This document shows positions 3,001-41,908 of a DNA stretch of 50,335 nucleotides, piece by piece. The stretch's first letter is position 1; every line of letters starts with the position of its first letter. Made by a program: the position numbers and the translations under genes. The DNA is from a virus: UHGV virus genome UHGV-1998140; one strand, written 5' to 3'. Under the pieces are notes generated by a model. It was not told the origin of the DNA and searched no databases. It was given only the letters and a program-made list of their open reading frames with translations.

Positions 3001-6000
3001 TGATACGACGTCATACCCCATGCGGTCGTAAGAAGGATCAAATGCCGGGTTAGGTATATAGTCATCCCCGGCTGCTTTTGCGGCGCTAATTGAGCTGTTG
3101 AGGGAAGTGATATTACTGTTCGCTGCAGTCAGGCCACTTTCCGTCTTCTCCACTCGCCCGGTCAGTGACGTCAGCGCGCTCTGATCCGCCTTTTTACTCA
3201 CATTCGAGTTCGTCGTGGTCAGGTCATTCTGCAGCTTTGTGATTGCCTGGCTGTGGCTGGCCAGTTTCCCTTCCGCTGAGTCAACGCGACTGGTCAGGTC
3301 AGTCACGGCAGAGGCATTTGCCTTCTTCGACACCCCGGTCGACGAAAAAACGTCGACTTTACGGATATACAGACGCGCACTGTTTGACGGTACCCAGCCC
3401 CCGGCGGCAAACCGCAGATAGACATAATTCCCGGTAAAGTTTTCCGGAATGGTCAGCTCCACGGTTTTCGTCTGCCAGCTGGTCGTCACGCCACTCAGCC
3501 ACGGGGATTCTGAGGATAGCCAGGCGACAGGATTGCCCAAATCAGTTATCACACCAACGGTATCAGACGATACGCTGTTCATCGTTTCCGATGTTTTGTA
3601 CTCAAATGAGACGGTAAGCGTCAGCCCGGCCTCAGCAGGGATACGCGTGACGTTGGCAACCCGAACAGAGCCGGTTGTCGTTCTCAGCGCTTTTTCACCT
3701 GCATCATACGTGAATGCCGAGCCGGTACCGGAGTTCTCCCAGAACGACAGATCCACATCCATGCCGCCGTTACTAATCAGGCTCCCTTCAGCCAGGGTGT
3801 TTTTCAGCATCGTCAGCTGGCCAGACTGTGTGGTCAGGTTGCCTTCCGTCGCGGATACCCGGTTGGTTAACGCCGTGACCGCGCTCGCATCGGCCTTTTT
3901 ACTGACGTTTGAATTGGTTGTCGTCAGGTCGTTCTGCAGTTTAGCGATCGCGCTGCCCTGGCTGGTCAGCGTTTTATCCTGCTGGCTGACGCTGGACTGC
4001 AGGCCCGTGATGGCGTTGCTGTTTGCGGCCACGCCCGACTCTGCTTTACCGACGCGGTTAGACAGCGAGGTCAGCGAATTCCCCTGGCTGGTTAACGTAG
4101 TGCCCTGCTGTTCAACCTTTTGCGTGAGGGACTGCAGCGCGGTTGCATCGGCTTTTTTACCCAGACTGGTTTCCAGCCCGCTGATTTTGCTGGCCTGTGC
4201 GCTTTGTGCGGTCGACAGGGAACTCAGCTCCTCCGCCACCGAGGATTTATTCTCGTTGAACTGCGTCTGCAGCGATTCCCGGGCTGTCACCTCTGCTTTA
4301 TCAGCAGTGATACGGGCATTCATCTCCTGAAACAACAGGCCAGAGCGCAGGTCTGCCAGATTATTGCTTTCACTCGTCCCCCGCATCTGCGTGGCCAGCG
4401 TGGCTCGCTTATTCGCTTCTGCCGTATCGGCATTCGCACGGGCTGTCGATTCTTCGCGCAATGCTGCAGTGCTGGCTCCCGGCGTCGGTCGACCCACGGC
4501 AATCCAGTCAATGATGATGAAATTATCATCAGACTGATCCACCGTTAAATCGAGGCGAAACTGGACAACCGGCTTGCTGTCATCGCTTCCCCAGGGAATG
4601 TCCTGAATACTGAGAACAGCCCTGCCACTGCTGTCATAATCCGGCTCTGCGACGGTCAGCATGCGACTGTCGTTGAACGACTGACCTTCATAGCGCCAGC
4701 GGATTTGACCACTCCACGCGGGCGTCCCCGTTTTCTTAAGACGCAGTTTCAGAAAGCGGTACGCTGAGCCACTGATACTGATTCCAGGAGATGTAATGTA
4801 AGCATCTGTCGCATGGTTTGCCGGTCTCAGCCAGCCGTTTTCAACAACCGAAGGCGTGCCGCCGTTAGATGTCCAGCCTTCCCGGTCGTTATCAAAGTAC
4901 CAGATAGCCTGGCTGTCAAACTGCTCCCCGGTTCCCGCCGAAATCTGAGCCATCTGTGTGGCCAGAGAATCATTCACATTCTGGATGATTTGCTGTGTCG
5001 ACTCGATAGCTGCAACACGCTCGTTTTTTTCATTCAGCAGCTGGTCTGCCGCCTGCGCCGCTTTCGCGTTGACGTCCGCAATGCGGTCGGCAGTCTCCTG
5101 TTTTACCGCTTTGTCCCAGCCTGTATTCGCCTGGGCGATGGACTGTTTCAGACTGTTTTCAACCGTCTGCAGCTGGGATTTTAACGCAGCATCCCCTTCG
5201 GCCAGGGTTTTGTTAACGTCAGCGATCTGCTGGTCAACGGAGGCATTAATATCGCTCACGGCATCGGTGATGCTCTTGTTGACTGCCGTGATATTGTCAC
5301 TGAGCGTCTGATTTACGCTGTTGATATTCTCCGTTATCGACTTGTTGACCGCCTCTATCTGCCCGTCAACCTGCTGGCGGATCTCAGACGCGGAATCATC
5401 AATACTCTGGTTAATATCGGTGACCTGCTGCGCGACTTCTTCACGAATAGCATCGGCGGTTTTTGTCAGCTCCTTGTGGGTCTCCTCAATATCCCGCTGG
5501 GCTTCCTGCCAGGCTTCCGTATCCTTAATCGCATCGGTCAGCTTGTCGTAATACTCACCGATATCGTCGCTGGCCATCCCCTGCACCCAGGCGGTCCACG
5601 GGCTTTCATTGCCGATACGATCAACGATCCGCGCGCGGTACCAGAATATCGCCGCAATCTGCAGGCCCATCTGCTGATACGTTTTACCCGGATACGCCAC
5701 ATCAGACAGCGCCATCGCCCCGTTGCCGTTGGGATTAGGACTGTACTGCAGCTCGGTTTTCTGCGTATCGCCGCTCCCCTCCGGGAACTCCCAGTTCAGC
5801 TGCACGCCATGCAGCAGGGAAGTGGTGGTCAGCGCCAGCGGTGCCGACGGCAAACCGATTTTTCCGGTCAGCGTTTTCTCTTCTGAGTATGCCCAGCCGC
5901 TGGAGACCTCTGCAGCGTTGATCGCCCGGACACGGGCCAGATAACGACCGGCGTAAATGCCGCTGACCTCGAACGAGGTGGTCGAGCTGCGCGGCACGTT

Positions 6001-38622: not shown

Positions 38623-39176
38623 GCGGATTTCTCCATACACATTGATTTATTCGCCACGACGCCCGGAGCTGCACACTCGCGGGCGTCACTCTTTTCTGCC
38701 ACACAAAACACCCGGTAAAGAAGCGTGATGTGTTCCTGAAATTTGGCGATTACCTGATAACTGTTTTCCTCAATCTGAGCACGCTCGGCATCATCAATAA
38801 CGCCGTCAGCTGTCGCTTTGCGTACAAAATTAGAATGCTTGCCGATCCACTCGATCGACTCCATTAAGCGCTGGTTAATATCGCCGTTATCGACATCTTC
38901 AATATCCGCCAACGGAACGAATACCCCACCTGATTGGCGCGCGATAGCGTCTGCGATATGATTTGCGCCACCAGCACGCTGGAGCACCATCACCCATCCA
39001 AGCGGGAAAATTTGATCGCCATCAACACGCAGGCGGTTAAACAAAGCATTTTCGGTTACACCGAGCCATTCAGCGGCTTCGCCATAACCCCCAGGCAATT
39101 CAGTGATCGTTTTCTTGATCGCGGCCACCAGCCAAGCAGGCTGACGCTCTACTTTCCAGATTGGCTCATTACCCAC
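38619..39176 (-). CDS. CII-like / early regulatory protein (uncertain)
   Basis: 185 aa immediately downstream of cro; HTH-like segment [18 protein letters not shown]. Confidence 0.4.
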
Positions 39177-39432
39177 GGTGACCTCTCTTTTTCTGTGGTG
39201 TAACTTCTTGTTTACTTTCCGTATGCTTCAAATACCGATGCGGATATAAAATCTGGAGTTCATCTATCTGGCCTGAAAAAAAATTGACCAGTTTCTCCGC
39301 AATGTCAGTTGACGCAACCTGTTGCCCTCGCTCGATTCGGCTCAAGTTTCCAGGATCAATATCTACTGCTGCAGCAACATGGGACAAAGTCATACCTTGC
39401 GACTTACGCAAGTATCTTAACGGTGATTGCAT
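39169..39432 (-). CDS. cro: Cro-like HTH repressor
   Basis: Start at ATG 39432 with AGGAGG 5 nt upstream; HTH LSHVAAAVDIDPGNLSRIERGQ; divergent from cI. Confidence 0.7.
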   Translation of the reverse strand: MQSPLRYLRKSQGMTLSHVAAAVDIDPGNLSRIERGQQVASTDIAEKLVNFFSGQIDELQILYPHRYLKHTESKQEVTPQKKRGHRG

Positions 39433-39447
39433 AAAACCTCCTTTAAA

Positions 39448-39510
39448 TTGCGCATTACGCATATTAAAGGGTACTTACGCCTTGCGCAAGTTGCTTTGCA
39501 TATAACGCAA
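39448..39510. promoter_or_regulatory. OR-like operator region with divergent PR / PRM promoters
   Basis: Three ~15-17 bp sites with TTGCG...CGCAA half-sites; PR -35 TTGCGC/-10 TAATAT (minus); PRM -35 TTGCAT/-10 TGTAAT ending 7 nt before cI ATG. Confidence 0.5.
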
Positions 39511-39530: not shown

Positions 39531-40226
39531 ATGAACATCGGAAAGCGAATCAGAGAACTACGCCTTGCAAAGGGCTTAAAAATAAACGACCTGGCTGATG
39601 CTTTGGGCATTGATGGCGCCAATATTTCTCGCATGGAAACAGGTAAACAGAAATCATTTACCGAACAATCCCTTAATCTTTATGCAAAGGCATTAGGCGT
39701 AGAAGTTGCTGAGCTCTTTACACCTCCCCAAAATGAAATTACTGTATATAATAACAGTATAAAACATCCAGTTCATGGAGAGGGTAGCTCGGTGTTTAGA
39801 GTGGAAATGCTTGATGTCAGTGCGAGCGCTGGTGGTGGATTTATTCAGGGCAGTGATGTTATTGATGTCATAAGGTCTATTGAATACAACAACGACCAAG
39901 CCATGACTTTATTCGGTGGCAGAACACCAGACTCAGTGAAGGTCATTAACGTTCGGGGCGACAGCATGGCTGACACTATTCAGCCTGGAGATTTGATTTT
40001 CGTCGATGTTTCAGTCAATAGCTTTGATGGCGATGGCATCTACGTCTTTGGTTTCGATGGCAAAATATATGTTAAGCGCCTGCAAATGATACCAGATAAA
40101 ATGCTCGTGATTTCTGATAATCCAAAATACAGAGAATGGGAAATCGATCGGGCTAATGAATACCGCTTTTGCGTTTATGGCAAAGTAATGATCAGCCAGT
40201 CACAAGCCTTCAAGCGCCACGGCTAA
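39531..40226 (+). CDS. cI: CI-type repressor (HTH plus S24 LexA-like peptidase domain)
   Basis: 231 aa; N-terminal HTH LKINDLADALGIDGANISRMETGK; C-terminal S24-like domain (RGDSMADTIQPGDLIFVD ... KIYVKRL). Confidence 0.9.
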   Translation: MNIGKRIRELRLAKGLKINDLADALGIDGANISRMETGKQKSFTEQSLNLYAKALGVEVAELFTPPQNEITVYNNSIKHPVHGEGSSVFRVEMLDVSASAGGGFIQGSDVIDVIRSIEYNNDQAMTLFGGRTPDSVKVINVRGDSMADTIQPGDLIFVDVSVNSFDGDGIYVFGFDGKIYVKRLQMIPDKMLVISDNPKYREWEIDRANEYRFCVYGKVMISQSQAFKRHG

Positions 40227-40244
40227 CCAGTTCCATTCATTTTT

Positions 40245-40267
40245 GCCGCCTTTATGGCGGCTTTTTT
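40245..40267 (+). terminator. Rho-independent terminator downstream of cI
   Basis: GCCGCC-tttat-GGCGGC stem followed by TTTTTT. Confidence 0.6.
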
Positions 40268-40280
40268 ACGCCCTCAAAAC

Positions 40281-40315
40281 TGCGAATTACGCAATTTTTA
40301 GTTGCGTAATTCGCA
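40281..40315. promoter_or_regulatory. OL-like operator palindrome
   Basis: Perfect 14-bp inverted repeat TGCGAATTACGCAA / TTGCGTAATTCGCA separated by 7 nt; same half-site family as the OR sites; TATTAT hexamer 7 nt downstream. Confidence 0.4.
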
Positions 40316-40434
40316 ACTTCATATTATCGTTGGTTGCATCGATAGCGAACAGGCAGGACGCCCACGAAGTAGCCGCCCGGGGCATATGAAGGCCGGGATG
40401 ATTCGCTAAGCAACCAGACAGCAGAGGCTTCAGG

Positions 40435-40647
40435 ATGAATTCAGCACAACGCCGTAAGGCATACCGCAAGCTACCAAAAGCTGGAGGAATTGTAGTTCTA
40501 CACGGTGTCCCTCGTTTAGTCCTAGGGTTATGCACATTTAACAGCTTTACGGGCGAAGAACGTAGCAAACCATCAGTAAACCGTATCAGAGTACAAATGT
40601 CAGGCGGCTCAACTGCGGCCCCCCTGGTGCGTAATTTGAAGTTTTGA
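40435..40647 (+). CDS. Candidate N-like antiterminator (very uncertain)
   Basis: 70-aa ORF with arginine-rich N-terminus MNSAQRRKAYRK in the position where lambda carries N; no RBS. Confidence 0.2.
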   Translation: MNSAQRRKAYRKLPKAGGIVVLHGVPRLVLGLCTFNSFTGEERSKPSVNRIRVQMSGGSTAAPLVRNLKF

Positions 40648-41378
40648 TTAAAAACAGGTGTCTTCGGGAGGGGTTGCGGAGCTGGATTGACCACCAGCAA
40701 CAGAAACTCACCCGACATACAGCAGCCGTTTAACCCACGGCGTCGGGGGTCCAGTAAACCTGGATTAATACTGTAGGGGTTGTGCCGGTTGGTCGCCGGC
40801 GCCCCGCCCGAAGACACCTGAGTTAACACAACATGAAAGCGCATTCCATCTTCATCCGTCGTGGGGACTGGTTTGTAACTGAAGGAGTGCGCTTCCAGTT
40901 GTGAACGGCAACATTCACACCGTTGTATGGCACATGCAACGTCAGCGGCCTGAGAGTTCCCTTTATCCATCAACTCTCAGAACACCGGAATGTGCAAGCC
41001 AGGTGTTTCAGGCACGACGTGCGCCCCACCAGCGCGGCGAAAAGGTGTGACGCCCGGGAAGAGTCCGGGACACAACAGGTAAGAGCATTCCCGCCACACG
41101 AGGCTGAAACCCAAGCGCCATGTGGATGCGCCGAAAAGCTACGACGGGGCGTTGGTAGAAGATCGGAGTGCTCTTTCCGTTGTGGTAATTGCGGCTATGC
41201 GCACGTGACGAGCCAAACCCGTTCAATGAATGCGTTTCCGGGAAGTGTACGTCGCCGGTTACTGGCTAAACCCGGCAGGTGGAGGCACCACCGCCACAAC
41301 CTAGTTAACTGTGCTGTGTGTGGTCTTGGCGGTTATCCAGTTTTCCACTATCCAAAGGAGGAAGAGGATAACGTTGTG

Positions 41379-41540
41379 ATGGATAACCGCCCTTTTTACA
41401 CAATACAAAAGAGCATCACCGGGCGACGGGCTCATTACCCAATCCACCCGGGCGGCATCCAAACCGCAGGTACTCTTCTGTGTTGTGTACGGAGAAATTC
41501 CCGGCGGTGGCAGCCGCCTTTCGAGAGGGTAAAACCATGA
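41379..41540 (+). CDS. Small basic ORF coupled to downstream gene (uncertain)
   Basis: AGGAGG/GAGG upstream of in-frame GTG 41376 and ATG 41379; TGA overlaps next ATG (ATGA); Arg-rich, may be non-coding. Confidence 0.25.
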   Translation: MDNRPFYTIQKSITGRRAHYPIHPGGIQTAGTLLCCVRRNSRRWQPPFERVKP

Positions 41541-41908
41541 GTAATGATCGCATGACAGTAGTGCCCGATTTCCTGGGTGAACTGGACGCCGGCGTGTTCA
41601 TGAACAAGATTGCGGCGGCTCTTAATACCACCGCGCTCGGCGTTCTGAACAACGGCAACAAAGGCAAGGTTGTCCTCACCTTTGATTTTGAGCGTATGGG
41701 CAACTCTGTTGAAGAGAAGCGCGTCAAGATTAAGCACAAGCTGAACTACAGCACCCCAACTCCCCGCGGCAAAGCGTCGGAAGAGGACACCACCGAAACA
41801 CCAATGTGGGTTAACAAAGGCGGCAAGCTCACTATCCTGCAGGAGGATCAGGGGCAACTCTTCGGTATCACCGGCACGGTGGACGGAAAGCTTAAAGCGG
41901 CTCAGTGA
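41537..41908 (+). CDS. Hypothetical early-left operon protein (YfdP-like position)
   Basis: Start at ATG 41537 (MSNDRMTVVPDF) inside the 142-aa track ORF; first clear gene after the non-coding region. Confidence 0.5.
   Translation: MSNDRMTVVPDFLGELDAGVFMNKIAAALNTTALGVLNNGNKGKVVLTFDFERMGNSVEEKRVKIKHKLNYSTPTPRGKASEEDTTETPMWVNKGGKLTILQEDQGQLFGITGTVDGKLKAAQ

What the first reader, a model, noticed from the sequence alone, without database searches (positions are those of the whole stretch)
40650..41375. ~0.75 kb GC-rich, apparently non-coding structured region where N/nutL would be expected
Between the OL-like palindrome and the first clear early-left gene there is no convincing protein gene; the two long track ORFs have Arg/Cys/His-rich junk-like translations and no RBS. 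The region has a 14-bp long-range inverted repeat (CAGGTGTCTTCGGG at ~40656 and CCCGAAGACACCTG at ~40806) enclosing nested hairpins, plus a 9-bp hairpin CTGAGAGTT/AACTCTCAG and an 11-bp one GGCGGTTATCC/GGATAACCGCC. It could be a large structured RNA or an N-independent antitermination element; the only N-like candidate (40435-40647) is weak.
Basis: partly seen in the sequence, partly recalled or inferred. Interest (0 to 1): 0.7.

Follow-up and report, generated by a model that had tools for sequence, protein, structure and literature searches.

The report
Structured non-coding leader of prophage operon
The stretch is a real non-coding part of a 1.2-kb tightly folded RNA leader that a lambda-like prophage makes ahead of its first early genes. 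The leader is built from conserved RNA modules: one travels with phage tRNA genes and one copies the anticodon arm of the initiator tRNA. These modules sit unannotated in about a quarter to a half of complete E. coli genomes, and their function is unknown.

Summary

The region is the middle of a 1.2-kb untranslated leader (40338-41536) of the rightward early operon, downstream of the cI-like repressor. It is a mosaic of conserved RNA modules:
- S3, closed by a roughly 20-bp helix.
- H1 and H2, paralogous 22-bp-stem hairpins with variable cargo.
- X, a 165-nt core with strong covariation. In other phages X is flanked in fixed register by tRNA genes.
- S5.

Three more elements lie outside the given coordinates:
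- E1 (40338-40411), a 65-nt element at the predicted 5' end with strong covariation.
- H3 (41398-41489), whose apex copies the initiator-tRNA anticodon arm.

None of these matches Rfam or the HK022 put model. The "weak N-like" 70-aa ORF is a real gene under purifying selection, but it is optional cargo.

My best reading is a processed, multi-module leader RNA that must be read through a conserved terminator. The mechanism is inferred, not shown.

The parts
39531..40226 (+). cI-like (HTH + Peptidase_S24/LexA-type) repressor gene; context only
   Evidence: Pfam and PHROG hits.
40245..40268 (+). Intrinsic terminator of the repressor gene
   Evidence: GCCGCC..GGCGGC stem followed by a T-run.
40281..40330 (+). 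Operator palindrome (OL) and inferred rightward early promoter. The -35 TTGCGT is at 40302-40307 and the -10 TATCGT at 40325-40330, giving a start near 40337.
   Evidence: The 14-bp perfect palindrome has related copies between cro and cI at 39397, 39448 and 39496. The promoter is inferred by analogy with ST64B and L135; it was not found by the consensus scan.
40338..40411 (+). E1, a conserved 65-nt three-helix RNA element at the predicted 5' end of the transcript. P1 is 40344-40349 with 40402-40407. P2 is 40352-40354 with 40360-40362. P3 is 40376-40380 with 40393-40397.
   Evidence: 93 distinct homologs are 94.5% paired, with a covariation score of 0.497 against at most 0.112 for slid controls. 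The covariance model scores 93.7 bits and finds a single copy in the window. E1 is present in 1863 of 5426 E. coli genomes.
40435..40647 (+). Real 70-aa gene with an arginine-rich N-terminus (MNSAQRRKAYRK...). It is optional cargo inserted between E1 and S3.
   Evidence: ST64B joins E1 directly to S3.
40653..40822 (+). S3, a structured domain closed by a roughly 20-bp helix with a conserved A.G mismatch
   Evidence: The fold z-score is -5.96. The same closing helix is used with two different interiors in 13 phage loci and the window. G.U wobbles occur on the + strand only. In ST64B the 5' end of the 74-nt STnc1310 RNA maps inside the 3' arm.
40826..40903 (+). H1, a long hairpin with a 22-bp conserved stem and variable apical cargo
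40904..41069 (+). X core, a conserved multi-hairpin RNA with invariant loops and junctions (UAUGGCACAUG, CCGGAAUGUGCAAG, CACCA, GGCGAnnnGGUGUGAC, GGAAGAG)
   Evidence: Covariation is shown. At least 118 viral contigs carry it, and 35 of them have same-strand tRNA genes in fixed register. It is in 39 GenBank phage records, never annotated as RNA.
41070..41184 (+). H2, a paralog of H1 with compensatory stem changes (AAGCGC/GCGCUU becomes AAGAGC/GCUCUU) and a 73-nt cargo
   Evidence: In four relatives read in full (of 20 with tRNA-Arg in this register) its 3' arm abuts a tRNA-Arg(UCU) gene.
41179..41300 (+). S5 domain, closed by GUUGUGG (41179-41185) with CCACAAC (41294-41300). It occupies the place that tRNA-Arg holds in relatives.
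   Evidence: It is also found next to tRNA genes on P1-like plasmids.
41328..41397 (+). Intrinsic terminator: a 12-bp G+C-rich stem (41328-41339 with 41380-41391), a structured 40-nt loop, and a T-run at 41393-41397
   Evidence: All 47 distinct loci examined have a G+C-rich hairpin (read directly in the printed flanks of about 40 of them) plus C(C)TTTTT(T) immediately 5' of H3, and the stems covary. The predicted fold energy is -28.8 kcal/mol.
41398..41489 (+). H3, a 19-bp-stem hairpin. One branch (41427-41440, CGGGCUCAUUACCC) copies the initiator-tRNA anticodon stem-loop.
   Evidence: Covariation gives 95.5% paired and 10 compensatory pairs, against at most 50% and at most 3 for slid controls. 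The 14-mer CGGGCTCATAACCC of E. coli tRNA-fMet is exact in 26 of 42 homologs. H3 is in 2522 of 5426 E. coli genomes.
41503..41539 (+). Small hairpin (GGCGG..CCGCC, 41503-41518), RBS GAGAGGG (41523-41529) and the start codon (41537) of the first early gene, a YfdP/sb37-like protein at 41537-41908

Best explanation
Positions 40650-41375 are the central part of a long (about 1.2 kb), untranslated, heavily folded leader RNA. It is transcribed rightward from the early promoter next to the cI-like repressor, and it precedes the first early gene at 41537.

The leader is an array of separable RNA modules.
- E1, a 65-nt element, sits at the 5' end.
- Several domains follow, each closed by a long (about 20 bp) conserved helix: S3, H1, H2 and H3.
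- Between H1 and H2 lies the conserved X core.
- A conserved intrinsic terminator (41328-41397) stands immediately before H3 and the first gene.

Inferred mechanism:
1. RNA polymerase must read through the conserved terminator, and through 1.2 kb of untranslated RNA that would otherwise invite Rho. One or both of the upstream conserved modules (E1 and/or X) make the elongation complex or the transcript competent for this, in the way put RNA does in HK022. The dense folding itself limits Rho loading.
2. The long helices are double-strand-specific (RNase III-type) processing sites. They cut the leader into stable sub-RNAs: X here, a tRNA-Arg in relatives, and STnc1310 in ST64B.
3. H3 displays an initiator-tRNA anticodon arm just upstream of the first ribosome-binding site. 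It acts on translation initiation or serves as a tRNA-fMet decoy.

What is shown: the non-coding status, the conserved secondary structures, the modular architecture, the conserved terminator, and the tRNA linkage. Steps 1-3 are inference.
For: Non-coding status:
- No protein family matches, indels break reading frames, and there is no codon periodicity.
- The small ORF through H3 is read in different frames in the window and in ST64B, and it is absent from most loci.

RNA structure on the + strand:
- Covariation is strong for E1, H3 and X.
- H1 and H2 show compensatory stem changes.
- U.G/G.U pairs, for example column 44-122 in 41 of 42 H3 sequences, would be mismatches on the other strand.

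Transcription, termination and processing in a homolog:
- ST64B STnc1310 is a 74-nt RNA downstream of the CI repressor gene. It is induced about tenfold by peroxide or NO, together with the first gene.
- Its coordinates map to L002 3309-3382. The 5' end falls inside the 3' arm of the S3 helix, and the 3' end falls in the T-run of an intrinsic terminator (PMC7067206).

Conserved terminator:
- It is present directly 5' of H3 in all 47 distinct loci examined, and its stems covary.

Position of E1:
- E1 lies within about 10 nt of the predicted transcription start in the window, ST64B and L135.
- It also heads a T5-like pre-early operon.

Alternative upstream modules:
- E1 and X precede the same terminator-H3 unit in different phages. 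Among E1 loci, 58 of 125 have H3. Among X loci, 32 of 118 have H3, and none of these 32 has E1 by covariance-model search.

Cargo logic of the long hairpins:
- In the four such relatives read in full, the H2 3' arm abuts tRNA-Arg(UCU); 20 X loci have the tRNA in that register. X also directly follows tRNA(CAT) on P1-like plasmids.

What the field knows:
- A related N-less phage (LLS) is said only to 'possibly' use a put-like mechanism (PMC12315714).
Against: - No experiment here shows antitermination, RNase III cleavage or any activity of H3.
- E1 is not a put family member and has a different topology.
- There is no second E1 copy in the rightward-promoter operon, unlike HK022 putR.
- Leaders that lack E1 still carry the terminator-H3 unit. 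E1 is therefore not universally needed, unless X substitutes for it.
- X also occurs inside tRNA arrays on P1-like plasmids, where an antitermination role is not obvious.
- Covariation for S3 is weak: 1 compensatory pair in 6 close sequences.
- The window's terminator has an unusually long 40-nt loop, and the simple terminator scan did not call it.
- The promoter is inferred, not mapped.
Confidence: 0.55

Rival explanations
1. The modules, especially X, H2/S5 and H3, are trans-acting stable RNAs derived from or allied to phage tRNA operons. They would be tRNA-part mimics made early to decoy or titrate host factors that act on tRNAs, such as anticodon nucleases of the VapC type that cut tRNA-fMet, CCA-end-modifying toxins, MetRS, or IF3/30S. 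Their place in the leader would be only a convenient early-expressed slot.
For: - X is flanked by same-strand tRNA genes in fixed register in 35 of 118 contigs.
- On a P1-like plasmid the order is tRNA(CAT)-X-H2-S5, directly upstream of a Tad2 anti-defence gene.
- H3 carries the exact 14-nt initiator-tRNA anticodon arm in 26 of 42 homologs.
- The H2 cargo in Kp4866-6, L056 and L140 has two 5-bp-stem hairpins with T-loop-like 7-nt loops (UUCGAUU, with UUCAAUU in some copies).
- The X hairpin loop displays CACCA.
- From general knowledge: enteric VapC toxins cleave tRNA-fMet in the anticodon arm, and early-left operons are typical sites of anti-defence functions.
Against: - ARAGORN and the Rfam tRNA models find no tRNA or tRNA-like gene in the window.
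- T-loops and U-turn loops are common building blocks of any large RNA.
- No defence system is linked here.
- This reading is compatible with the best explanation rather than exclusive of it.
Confidence: 0.25
2. This is an N/nut-type system. The 70-aa arginine-rich protein (40435-40647) would be an N-like antiterminator that binds E1 or the hairpins as nut sites.
For: - The ORF is real, is the first gene after the promoter, and begins with an arginine-rich motif resembling N-protein RNA-binding motifs.
- In L135 it also directly follows E1.
Against: - Only 2 of 125 E1 loci encode it.
- ST64B and the minimal leaders lack it, yet they keep E1, S3, the terminator and H3.
- It has no Pfam or PHROG hit to N families.
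- No boxB-like short hairpin lies between the promoter and the ORF.
Confidence: 0.08
3. The conserved inverted repeats are DNA-level features, such as recombination linkers for module exchange, remnants of small palindromic mobile repeats, or extra operator sites. Any RNA folding would be incidental.
For: - The region is a mosaic whose junctions fall at the repeated CACAAC/GTTGTG and S3 arms.
- The same arms enclose unrelated cargo.
- A 20-nt inverted copy of the operator flank lies at 40628-40647.
Against: - Compensatory changes keep pairing while the sequence changes.
- Wobble pairs are strand-specific.
- The invariant nucleotides lie in loops and junctions rather than in the arms.
- A processed RNA from the homologous ST64B leader is observed.
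Confidence: 0.07
4. E1 is a CsrA-binding 5' element. It would stabilise or regulate the early transcript according to host physiology, as CsrA does at the 5' end of flhDC mRNA, rather than act on RNA polymerase.
For: - The P2 hairpin loop reads CAGGA(A/C/U)G in 86 of 93 homologs, and a GGA is kept in 92 of 93 even when the loop changes.
- A second GGAUGA about 40 nt downstream is kept in 90 of 93.
- From general knowledge, both match the CsrB repeat and the CsrA SELEX consensus.
Against: - The other invariant stretches (CCCACGAAGUAGCCGCC and the P3 loop GGCAUAUGAAG) are not explained by CsrA.
- No binding data exist.
Confidence: 0.12
5. Hidden protein-coding gene(s) lie within 40650-41375.
For: Two long ORFs exist, of 205 and 228 codons. 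PGAP sometimes calls a 'hypothetical protein' over the H3 region in E. coli.
Against: - No family hits.
- Indels break the frames and there is no codon periodicity.
- The PGAP call inspected is flagged as frameshifted.
- The reading frame differs between homologs.
Confidence: 0.03

Closest known systems
HK022 put RNAs (putL/putR), cis-acting processive antiterminator RNAs
   Same: E1 is also about 65-70 nt. It lies at the very 5' end of the early-left transcript of a lambdoid phage without a recognisable N protein, upstream of terminators. It has near-invariant unpaired nucleotides, which suggests binding to a conserved host machine.
   Different: - There is no sequence or structure match. The put covariance model gives a best E-value of 1.5 elsewhere in the window, and the E1 model finds nothing in six put loci.
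- E1 is a closed three-helix junction, not two tandem stem-loops.
- It is a single copy, with no putR equivalent.
- Its function is untested.
Lambda N-leader/nutL region and T7 early-region RNase III sites
   Same: These are long imperfect helices of 20 bp or more in an early phage transcript, placed between functional units and just upstream of the first gene. In the ST64B homolog, the recorded 5' end of an RNA (not shown to be a cleavage product) falls inside one such helix.
   Different: Here the helices have conserved sequence, are repeated (S3, H1, H2, H3), and enclose variable 'cargo'. No boxA/boxB-N system was found. Cleavage was not shown for this phage.
STnc1310 of Salmonella prophage ST64B (transcriptomic annotation, function unknown)
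   Same: It is a direct homolog context. It lies in the same leader, between S3 and the terminator, and is induced together with the first early gene (PMC7067206).
   Different: The window lacks that particular terminator segment. STnc1310 covers only 74 nt of the leader and has not been analysed structurally.
Stable or large structured RNAs linked to phage tRNA clusters (T4 species 1/2 RNAs; GOLLD and ROOL in Lactobacillales prophages), from general knowledge
   Same: X (with H2 and S5) is a conserved structured RNA of unknown function that sits next to phage tRNA genes on the same strand.
   Different: There is no Rfam match to GOLLD, ROOL or any other family. X is smaller (about 165-400 nt), belongs to Enterobacterales phages, and is also used as part of an early-operon leader.
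tRNA anticodon-arm mimics in mRNA leaders (E. coli thrS operator), from general knowledge
   Same: H3 shows a tRNA anticodon stem-loop copy about 95 nt upstream of a start codon.
   Different: It copies the initiator tRNA (three G-C pairs plus the CAU anticodon) rather than tRNA-Thr. The downstream gene is not a synthetase. The ligand is unknown.

Membership tests
HK022 put antiterminator RNA | Conserved sequence and two-stem-loop structure (CGAACGGC..GUCGG, with stem II carrying GGCGGGUUCAGGAUGAACGGCAAU) | tested here: not met
   A covariance model built from 7 put sequences (HK022 putL/putR, HK639, phiEt88, CobraSix, S9-5, PdC23) finds no hit better than E=1.5 in the window, and none at E1. 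The reciprocal E1 model finds nothing in the put loci.
HK022 put antiterminator RNA | Located directly downstream of the early promoter, ahead of terminators | tested here: met
   E1 starts about 7-10 nt after the inferred start site in the window, ST64B and L135. A conserved intrinsic terminator lies downstream. The promoter position is inferred.
HK022 put antiterminator RNA | A second copy in the rightward (PR) operon (putR) | tested here: not met
   The E1 model finds one copy only in the 50-kb window with filters off.
HK022 put antiterminator RNA | Suppresses termination in cis by binding the RNA polymerase beta' zinc-binding domain | not testable with these tools
   This needs in vitro transcription or rpoC zinc-binding-domain mutants.
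Lambda-type N/nut antitermination | N-family protein encoded first in the PL operon | tested here: inconclusive
   The 70-aa arginine-rich ORF is real but hits no N family in Pfam or PHROGs. It is absent from 123 of 125 E1 loci.
Lambda-type N/nut antitermination | boxA plus a short boxB hairpin between the promoter and N | tested here: not met
   No such hairpin lies in 40338-40434. The boxA-like GCUCUUU/GCUCUUAC strings occur only inside the base-paired 3' arms of H hairpins.
RNase III processing site | Imperfect double helix of about 20 bp or more in the transcript | tested here: met
   This holds for the S3 closing helix, H1, H2 and H3.
RNase III processing site | Cleavage within the helix in vivo | not testable with these tools
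   There is only indirect support: the 5' end of ST64B STnc1310 maps inside the S3 3' arm.
tRNA gene / tRNA-like RNA | Cloverleaf detectable by ARAGORN or the Rfam tRNA model | tested here: not met
   There are 0 tRNAs in the window and no tRNA hit at E<=10. Only part-mimics are present: the initiator anticodon arm matches 13 of 14 in the window and 14 of 14 in 26 of 42 homologs.
Any Rfam 15 family | Match at gathering score or at E<=10 | tested here: not met
   There are 0 gathering hits in the window. Only chance-level hits appear in 40200-41600.
Intrinsic terminator | G+C-rich hairpin followed directly by a U-run | tested here: met
   The 41328-41391 stem is followed by a T-run at 41393-41397. 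The feature is conserved with covarying stems in 47 loci. Termination activity was not tested.
CsrA-binding RNA (CsrB-type sites) | Two or more GGA motifs, one in a hairpin loop, matching CAGGA(U/C/A)G | tested here: met
   E1 has this in 86 of 93 homologs, with GGAUGA in 90 of 93. Binding was not tested.

The most novel reading that the evidence does not exclude
The leader carries previously undescribed functional RNA classes.
- E1 and/or X would be a second, put-unrelated kind of RNA that makes E. coli RNA polymerase resistant to termination.
- H3 would be an initiator-tRNA anticodon-arm mimic. It would either engage the 30S P site or IF3 to control the first early gene, or act as a decoy for nucleases that target tRNA-fMet.

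Under this reading, a third to a half of E. coli genomes would carry unrecognised phage RNAs that manipulate core transcription and translation machinery.
Probability: 0.25. Interest if true: 0.85.

Novelty: new variant of a known kind. Interest (0 to 1): 0.68.

Why it matters
Lambdoid phages without an N protein are common, and how they get past their early terminators is unknown outside HK022. A 2025 study of a related phage could only guess at a put-like mechanism.

This work identifies concrete candidates: E1, X, a conserved terminator and H3. Each has covariation-supported structure and very wide distribution:
- E1 is in 34% of complete E. coli genomes.
- H3 is in 46%.
- Parts of the leader including X gave matches in 27%.

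None of them is in Rfam or annotated, so the open question becomes directly testable.

Two further observations point to RNA-level interplay between phages and the host translation or tRNA machinery: X is linked to phage tRNA genes, and the initiator-tRNA anticodon arm is copied exactly ahead of the first early gene. This could be regulatory or anti-defence.

Tried and rejected
- Rfam gathering and permissive scans returned nothing relevant.
- ARAGORN found no tRNA in the window.
- I hypothesised that E1 is a put homolog, on the basis of the shared CGAAC..GGC and GGAUGA strings. Covariance-model searches in both directions rejected this.
- I looked for a second E1 copy in the PR operon and found none.
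- I considered a translated leader peptide (uORF) running from AGGAGG in the terminator loop through H3 and coupled to the first gene. This is rejected as a general feature: the frame differs between the window and ST64B, and most loci lack it.
- Protein-family searches of all ORFs in the region returned nothing.
- Similarity of UGGCAC in X to a sigma-54 -24 element fails on spacing (inspection).
- Similarity of the H arms to integron attC R boxes amounts to only AAC/GTT, so it was not pursued.
- A K-turn or hammerhead reading of E1 does not fit the motif order (inspection).
- Literature searches for put-like elements, STnc1310 and initiator-tRNA mimics in phage found no description of these modules.
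- The King et al. 2011 paper on put-like RNAs could not be read.
Full report
**Setting**

The window carries a lambdoid immunity region. It contains a cro-like gene (39169-39462, -), a cII-like gene (38619-39176, -) and a cI-like HTH/Peptidase_S24 repressor (39531-40226, +). After the repressor's terminator (40245-40268) comes a perfect 14-bp operator palindrome (40281-40315). Related copies lie between cro and cI. The next recognisable gene on the + strand is a YfdP/sb37-like protein at 41537-41908, followed by a DUF2303/YfdQ-like gene. The finding (40650-41375) therefore lies inside a 1.2-kb gap downstream of the rightward early promoter.

**Checking the observation**

- GC content is 55-57%, against about 42% in the immunity genes.
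- 40640-40835 folds with z = -5.96, and 40825-41190 with z = -3.63, against dinucleotide shuffles.
- The two long ORFs have no Pfam or PHROG match.
- Against the closest relative (Klebsiella phage Kp4866-6, 88% identity) the interval 40826-41540 has 14 indels, mostly not multiples of three. Substitutions fall 23/15/16 by position mod 3, and the 205-codon ORF collapses to 111 codons.

The region is not protein-coding.

**The region is a mosaic**

BLAST against relatives splits the gap into modules.
- *E1 (40338-40411)* is shared with ST64B, SfV, SfII, SfIV, phiNP, ZF40, mEp237 and many others.
- *40411-40653* is an insertion relative to ST64B, which joins E1 directly to S3. It holds the 70-aa ORF.
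- *S3 (40653-40822)* is shared at the nucleotide level, among GenBank phage records, only with ST64B-type phages.
- *40826-41184* matched, in whole or in part, in many Klebsiella and E. coli prophages. Matches to some part of the leader occur in 1474 of 5426 complete E. coli genomes, and in the loci inspected the module lies between a repressor gene and the first early gene.
- *41166-41300* also occurs on about 93-kb P1-like plasmids, next to tRNA genes.
- *41386-41497* is the most widely shared piece.

**E1 (outside the given coordinates)**

A scan of viral contigs with an 18-mer gave more than 120 loci. In 93 distinct sequences, the outer helix P1 and the hairpin P3 change by compensation. 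P1 appears as GCGAA/UUCGC, ACGAA/UUCGU, CCACC/GGUGG, UCAUC/GAUGG and GCAAA/UUUGC. P3 appears as CCCGG/CCGGG, CCUGG/CCAGG, CCGGU/ACCGG, CCGAC/GUCGG, CCACC/GGUGG and others. The loops and junctions are nearly invariant. Overall 94.5% of cells are paired, and the covariation score is 0.497 against at most 0.112 for slid controls.

E1 lies about 7-10 nt downstream of the inferred transcription start in the window, ST64B and L135. It also heads a pre-early operon of a T5-like Providencia phage. It is in 1863 of 5426 E. coli genomes and is never annotated.

I tested whether E1 is a put RNA. A covariance model built from seven known or annotated put sequences finds nothing in the window (best E = 1.5, elsewhere). 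The E1 model finds nothing in the put loci, and only one copy in the window. E1 therefore works in the same place as putL but is not a member of that family.

Its P2 loop (CAGGA[A/C/U]G in 86 of 93) and its GGAUGA (90 of 93) resemble CsrA sites. I keep that as a rival reading.

**The 70-aa ORF**

Twelve protein clusters at 73-93% identity were found; the ten full-length unfused ones are 70-71 aa. Differences concentrate at third codon positions (10/14/32 and 10/7/39), and synonymous codon changes exceed non-synonymous ones. This shows a real gene. Its N-terminus (MNAAQRRKAYRKHPKAG) is arginine-rich.

Only 2 of 125 E1 loci encode it. In L135 it also sits between E1 and an S3-type domain. It is optional cargo, not the general partner of E1.

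**S3**

The closing helix (GGUGUCUUCGGGAGGGG paired with CCCCGCCCGAAGAYACC, with a conserved A.G mismatch) encloses two unrelated interiors in different phages. Among six close type-A sequences, covariation is weak: one compensatory pair plus several G.U to G-C changes. The wobble pairs fit the + strand only.

In ST64B, the published RNA STnc1310 (D23580 coordinates 2099207-2099280) maps to L002 3309-3382. This mapping uses an offset that I checked on both ends of the cI gene. Its 5' end is inside the 3' arm of the S3 helix, and its 3' end is in the T-run of an intrinsic terminator, CUGGCGG..CCGCCAGCUUUUU. It rises about tenfold with the first early gene under peroxide or NO shock (PMC7067206). 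This is the only transcript-level evidence available. It supports rightward transcription, termination inside the leader, and a 5' end inside a long helix that could arise by processing or from an internal start site.

**H hairpins**

A fuzzy search found three paralogous hairpins in the window and none elsewhere in its 50 kb: H1 (40826-40903), H2 (41070-41184) and H3 (41398-41489). Their stems, about 19-22 bp with a bulged A, are conserved in sequence yet change by compensation:
- H1 has AAGCGC/GCGCUU.
- H2 has AAGAGC/GCUCUU.
- ST64B has AAGAGUU/AACUCUU.

The apical cargo is unrelated and ranges from 34 to 127 nt. In Kp4866-6, L056 and L140 the H2 cargo contains two 5-bp hairpins with T-loop-like 7-nt loops (UUCGAUU; UUCAAUU in some copies).

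**X core (40904-41069)**

Nine homologs give 41 predicted pairs, 13 of them with compensatory changes. A scan with the invariant 14-mer CCGGAATGTGCAAG returned at least 118 viral contigs. In a 60-sequence alignment, all 12 consensus pairs show compensation. Loops and junctions are invariant: UAUGGCACAUG, CCGGAAUGUGCAAG, a CACCA loop, GGCGAnnnGGUGUGAC and a GGAAGAG loop.

Context:
- 35 of 118 contigs have same-strand tRNA genes in fixed register. In some, a tRNA with anticodon CAU starts 173-175 nt 5' of the motif. In others, tRNA-Arg(UCU) starts 160-225 nt 3' of the motif (160-167 nt in 18 of 20). In the four such loci read in full, the tRNA directly abuts the H2 3' arm ...CGUUGUG.
- 32 of 118 have the H3 core 326-1001 nt downstream, at 356 or 376 nt in 29 of them.
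- None of those 32 has E1 by covariance-model search.
- A P1-like plasmid has tRNA(CAT)-X-H2-S5 upstream of a Tad2 gene.

In the window, S5 (41179-41300) occupies the position that tRNA-Arg holds in relatives. X is in 39 GenBank phage records and is never annotated as RNA.

**Terminator and H3 (partly outside the given coordinates)**

In all 47 distinct loci examined, a G+C-rich hairpin followed by C(C)UUUUU(U) sits immediately 5' of H3. Its stems covary: GGCGGUACCAG/CUGGUACCGCC, GUCGGCG/CGCCGAC, CUGGCGG/CCGCCAG and GGCGGUUAUCCA/UGGAUAACCGCC.

The H3 structure is supported by covariation. It is 95.5% paired with 10 compensatory pairs, against 42.5-50% and at most 3 for slid controls.

One branch of H3 is GAC-GGG-CUCAUAA-CCC-AAUCC. 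The 14-mer CGGGCUCAUAACCC is identical to the anticodon arm of E. coli initiator tRNA. I verified that tRNA sequence against all 5426 genomes, where it occurs at a median of 4 copies. The 14-mer is exact in 26 of 42 H3 homologs. The window has CUCAUUA in the loop (41427-41440). Across the 42 H3 sequences, the three G-C pair positions of this arm hold G-C in 42, 41 and 41 sequences, and the CAU triplet is kept in all but one of the 41 apexes read.

H3 is in 2522 of 5426 E. coli genomes. PGAP annotates either nothing there or a hypothetical protein, flagged frameshifted in the one locus inspected. A small ORF through H3 is read in different frames in the window and in ST64B, and most loci lack it.

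**Interpretation**

What is shown:
- The interval is non-coding.
- It is a set of conserved + strand RNA structures.
- These are modules that recombine.
- The leader contains a conserved terminator.
- X is linked to tRNA genes.

What is inferred:
- E1 and/or X confer read-through. They are alternative upstream partners of the same terminator-H3 unit, and the window has both.
- The long helices are RNase III-type processing sites that release cargo.
- H3 acts on initiation or as a decoy.

Weak points:
- There is no functional data.
- E1 is absent from many terminator-H3 leaders.
- X also occurs in plasmid tRNA arrays.
- The promoter is inferred.

**Novelty**

I found no Rfam family, no annotation in any of three collections, and no description in the searchable literature. 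A 2025 paper on the related N-less phage LLS only guesses at a put-like mechanism (PMC12315714).

I file it as a new variant of known kinds: phage early-leader regulatory RNA, and tRNA-linked phage structured RNA. There is a real chance that E1, X or H3 are new functional classes.

Noticed in passing
window 40338-40411: E1 is a 65-nt three-helix RNA at the predicted 5' end of the early-left transcript, with very strong covariation. It is present in 34% of complete E. coli genomes and in Salmonella, Shigella, Klebsiella, Yersinia, Pectobacterium, Pantoea, Aeromonas and T5-like Providencia phages. It is not a put RNA and is not in Rfam.
   Followed up: yes
window 41427-41440 (within H3, 41398-41489): This is a copy of the E. 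coli initiator-tRNA anticodon stem-loop (three G-C pairs plus the CAU loop), about 95 nt upstream of the first early gene. It is exact in 26 of 42 homologs. H3 is in 46% of E. coli genomes.
   Followed up: partly
window 40435-40647: A 70-aa ORF with an arginine-rich N-terminus is a real gene under purifying selection. It is inserted between E1 and S3 in only a few phages. Its function is unknown.
   Followed up: partly
window 40628-40647 vs 40274-40293: A 20-nt inverted copy (90%) of the left flank of the operator lies at the 3' end of the 70-aa ORF insertion. It could be a trace of how the insertion arose, or an extra repressor site.
   Followed up: no
L004 (E. coli P1-like plasmid pE2863-2) 1779-2200 and 1250-1400: tRNA(CAT) is followed directly by X, H2 and S5, just upstream of a Tad2 (anti-Thoeris) gene. 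A second S5-like copy follows another tRNA.
   Followed up: partly
L138, L219, L239, L140 (IMG/VR contigs), 160-225 nt 3' of the X motif: In these relatives a tRNA-Arg(UCU) gene starts immediately after the H2 3' arm, in the place taken by S5 in the window. In the two of them (L138, L219) whose printed sequence reaches that far, a hairpin-plus-T-run terminator of the same type follows; the other two were cut short.
   Followed up: partly
L008 (Kp4866-6) about 3990-4070; L056; L140: The H2 cargo contains two hairpins with a 5-bp stem and the 7-nt loop UUCGAUU (UUCAAUU in some copies), like tRNA T-arms. ARAGORN calls no tRNA in L008; L056 was not scanned, and in L140 it calls only the separate tRNA-Arg downstream of the cargo.
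   Followed up: no
window 40827-40832, 40898-40903, 41071-41076, 41179-41184, 41295-41300, 41399-41404, 41483-41488: CACAAC and GUUGUG strings alternate along the leader. Each can pair with either neighbour, so the closures of H1, X, H2 and S5 are mutually exclusive in part. They could be alternative folds or recombination linkers.
   Followed up: no
window 41168-41176 and the homologous H2/H3 3' arms in relatives: Strings resembling boxA (UGCUCUUU; GCUCUUAC in L056 and L106) occur in the 3' arms of the H hairpins. They are base-paired, and their significance is untested.
   Followed up: no
window 40355-40361 and 40396-40401: E1 carries two CsrA-type motifs: CAGGACG in a hairpin loop, and GGAUGA. 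They are conserved in 86 and 90 of 93 homologs.
   Followed up: partly
L136 (E. coli JCM 20135, e14-like prophage) 1536-2630: Here E1 follows ymfK. A 170-aa gene on the opposite strand sits between E1 and H3, and PGAP calls a frameshifted hypothetical protein over H3.
   Followed up: no
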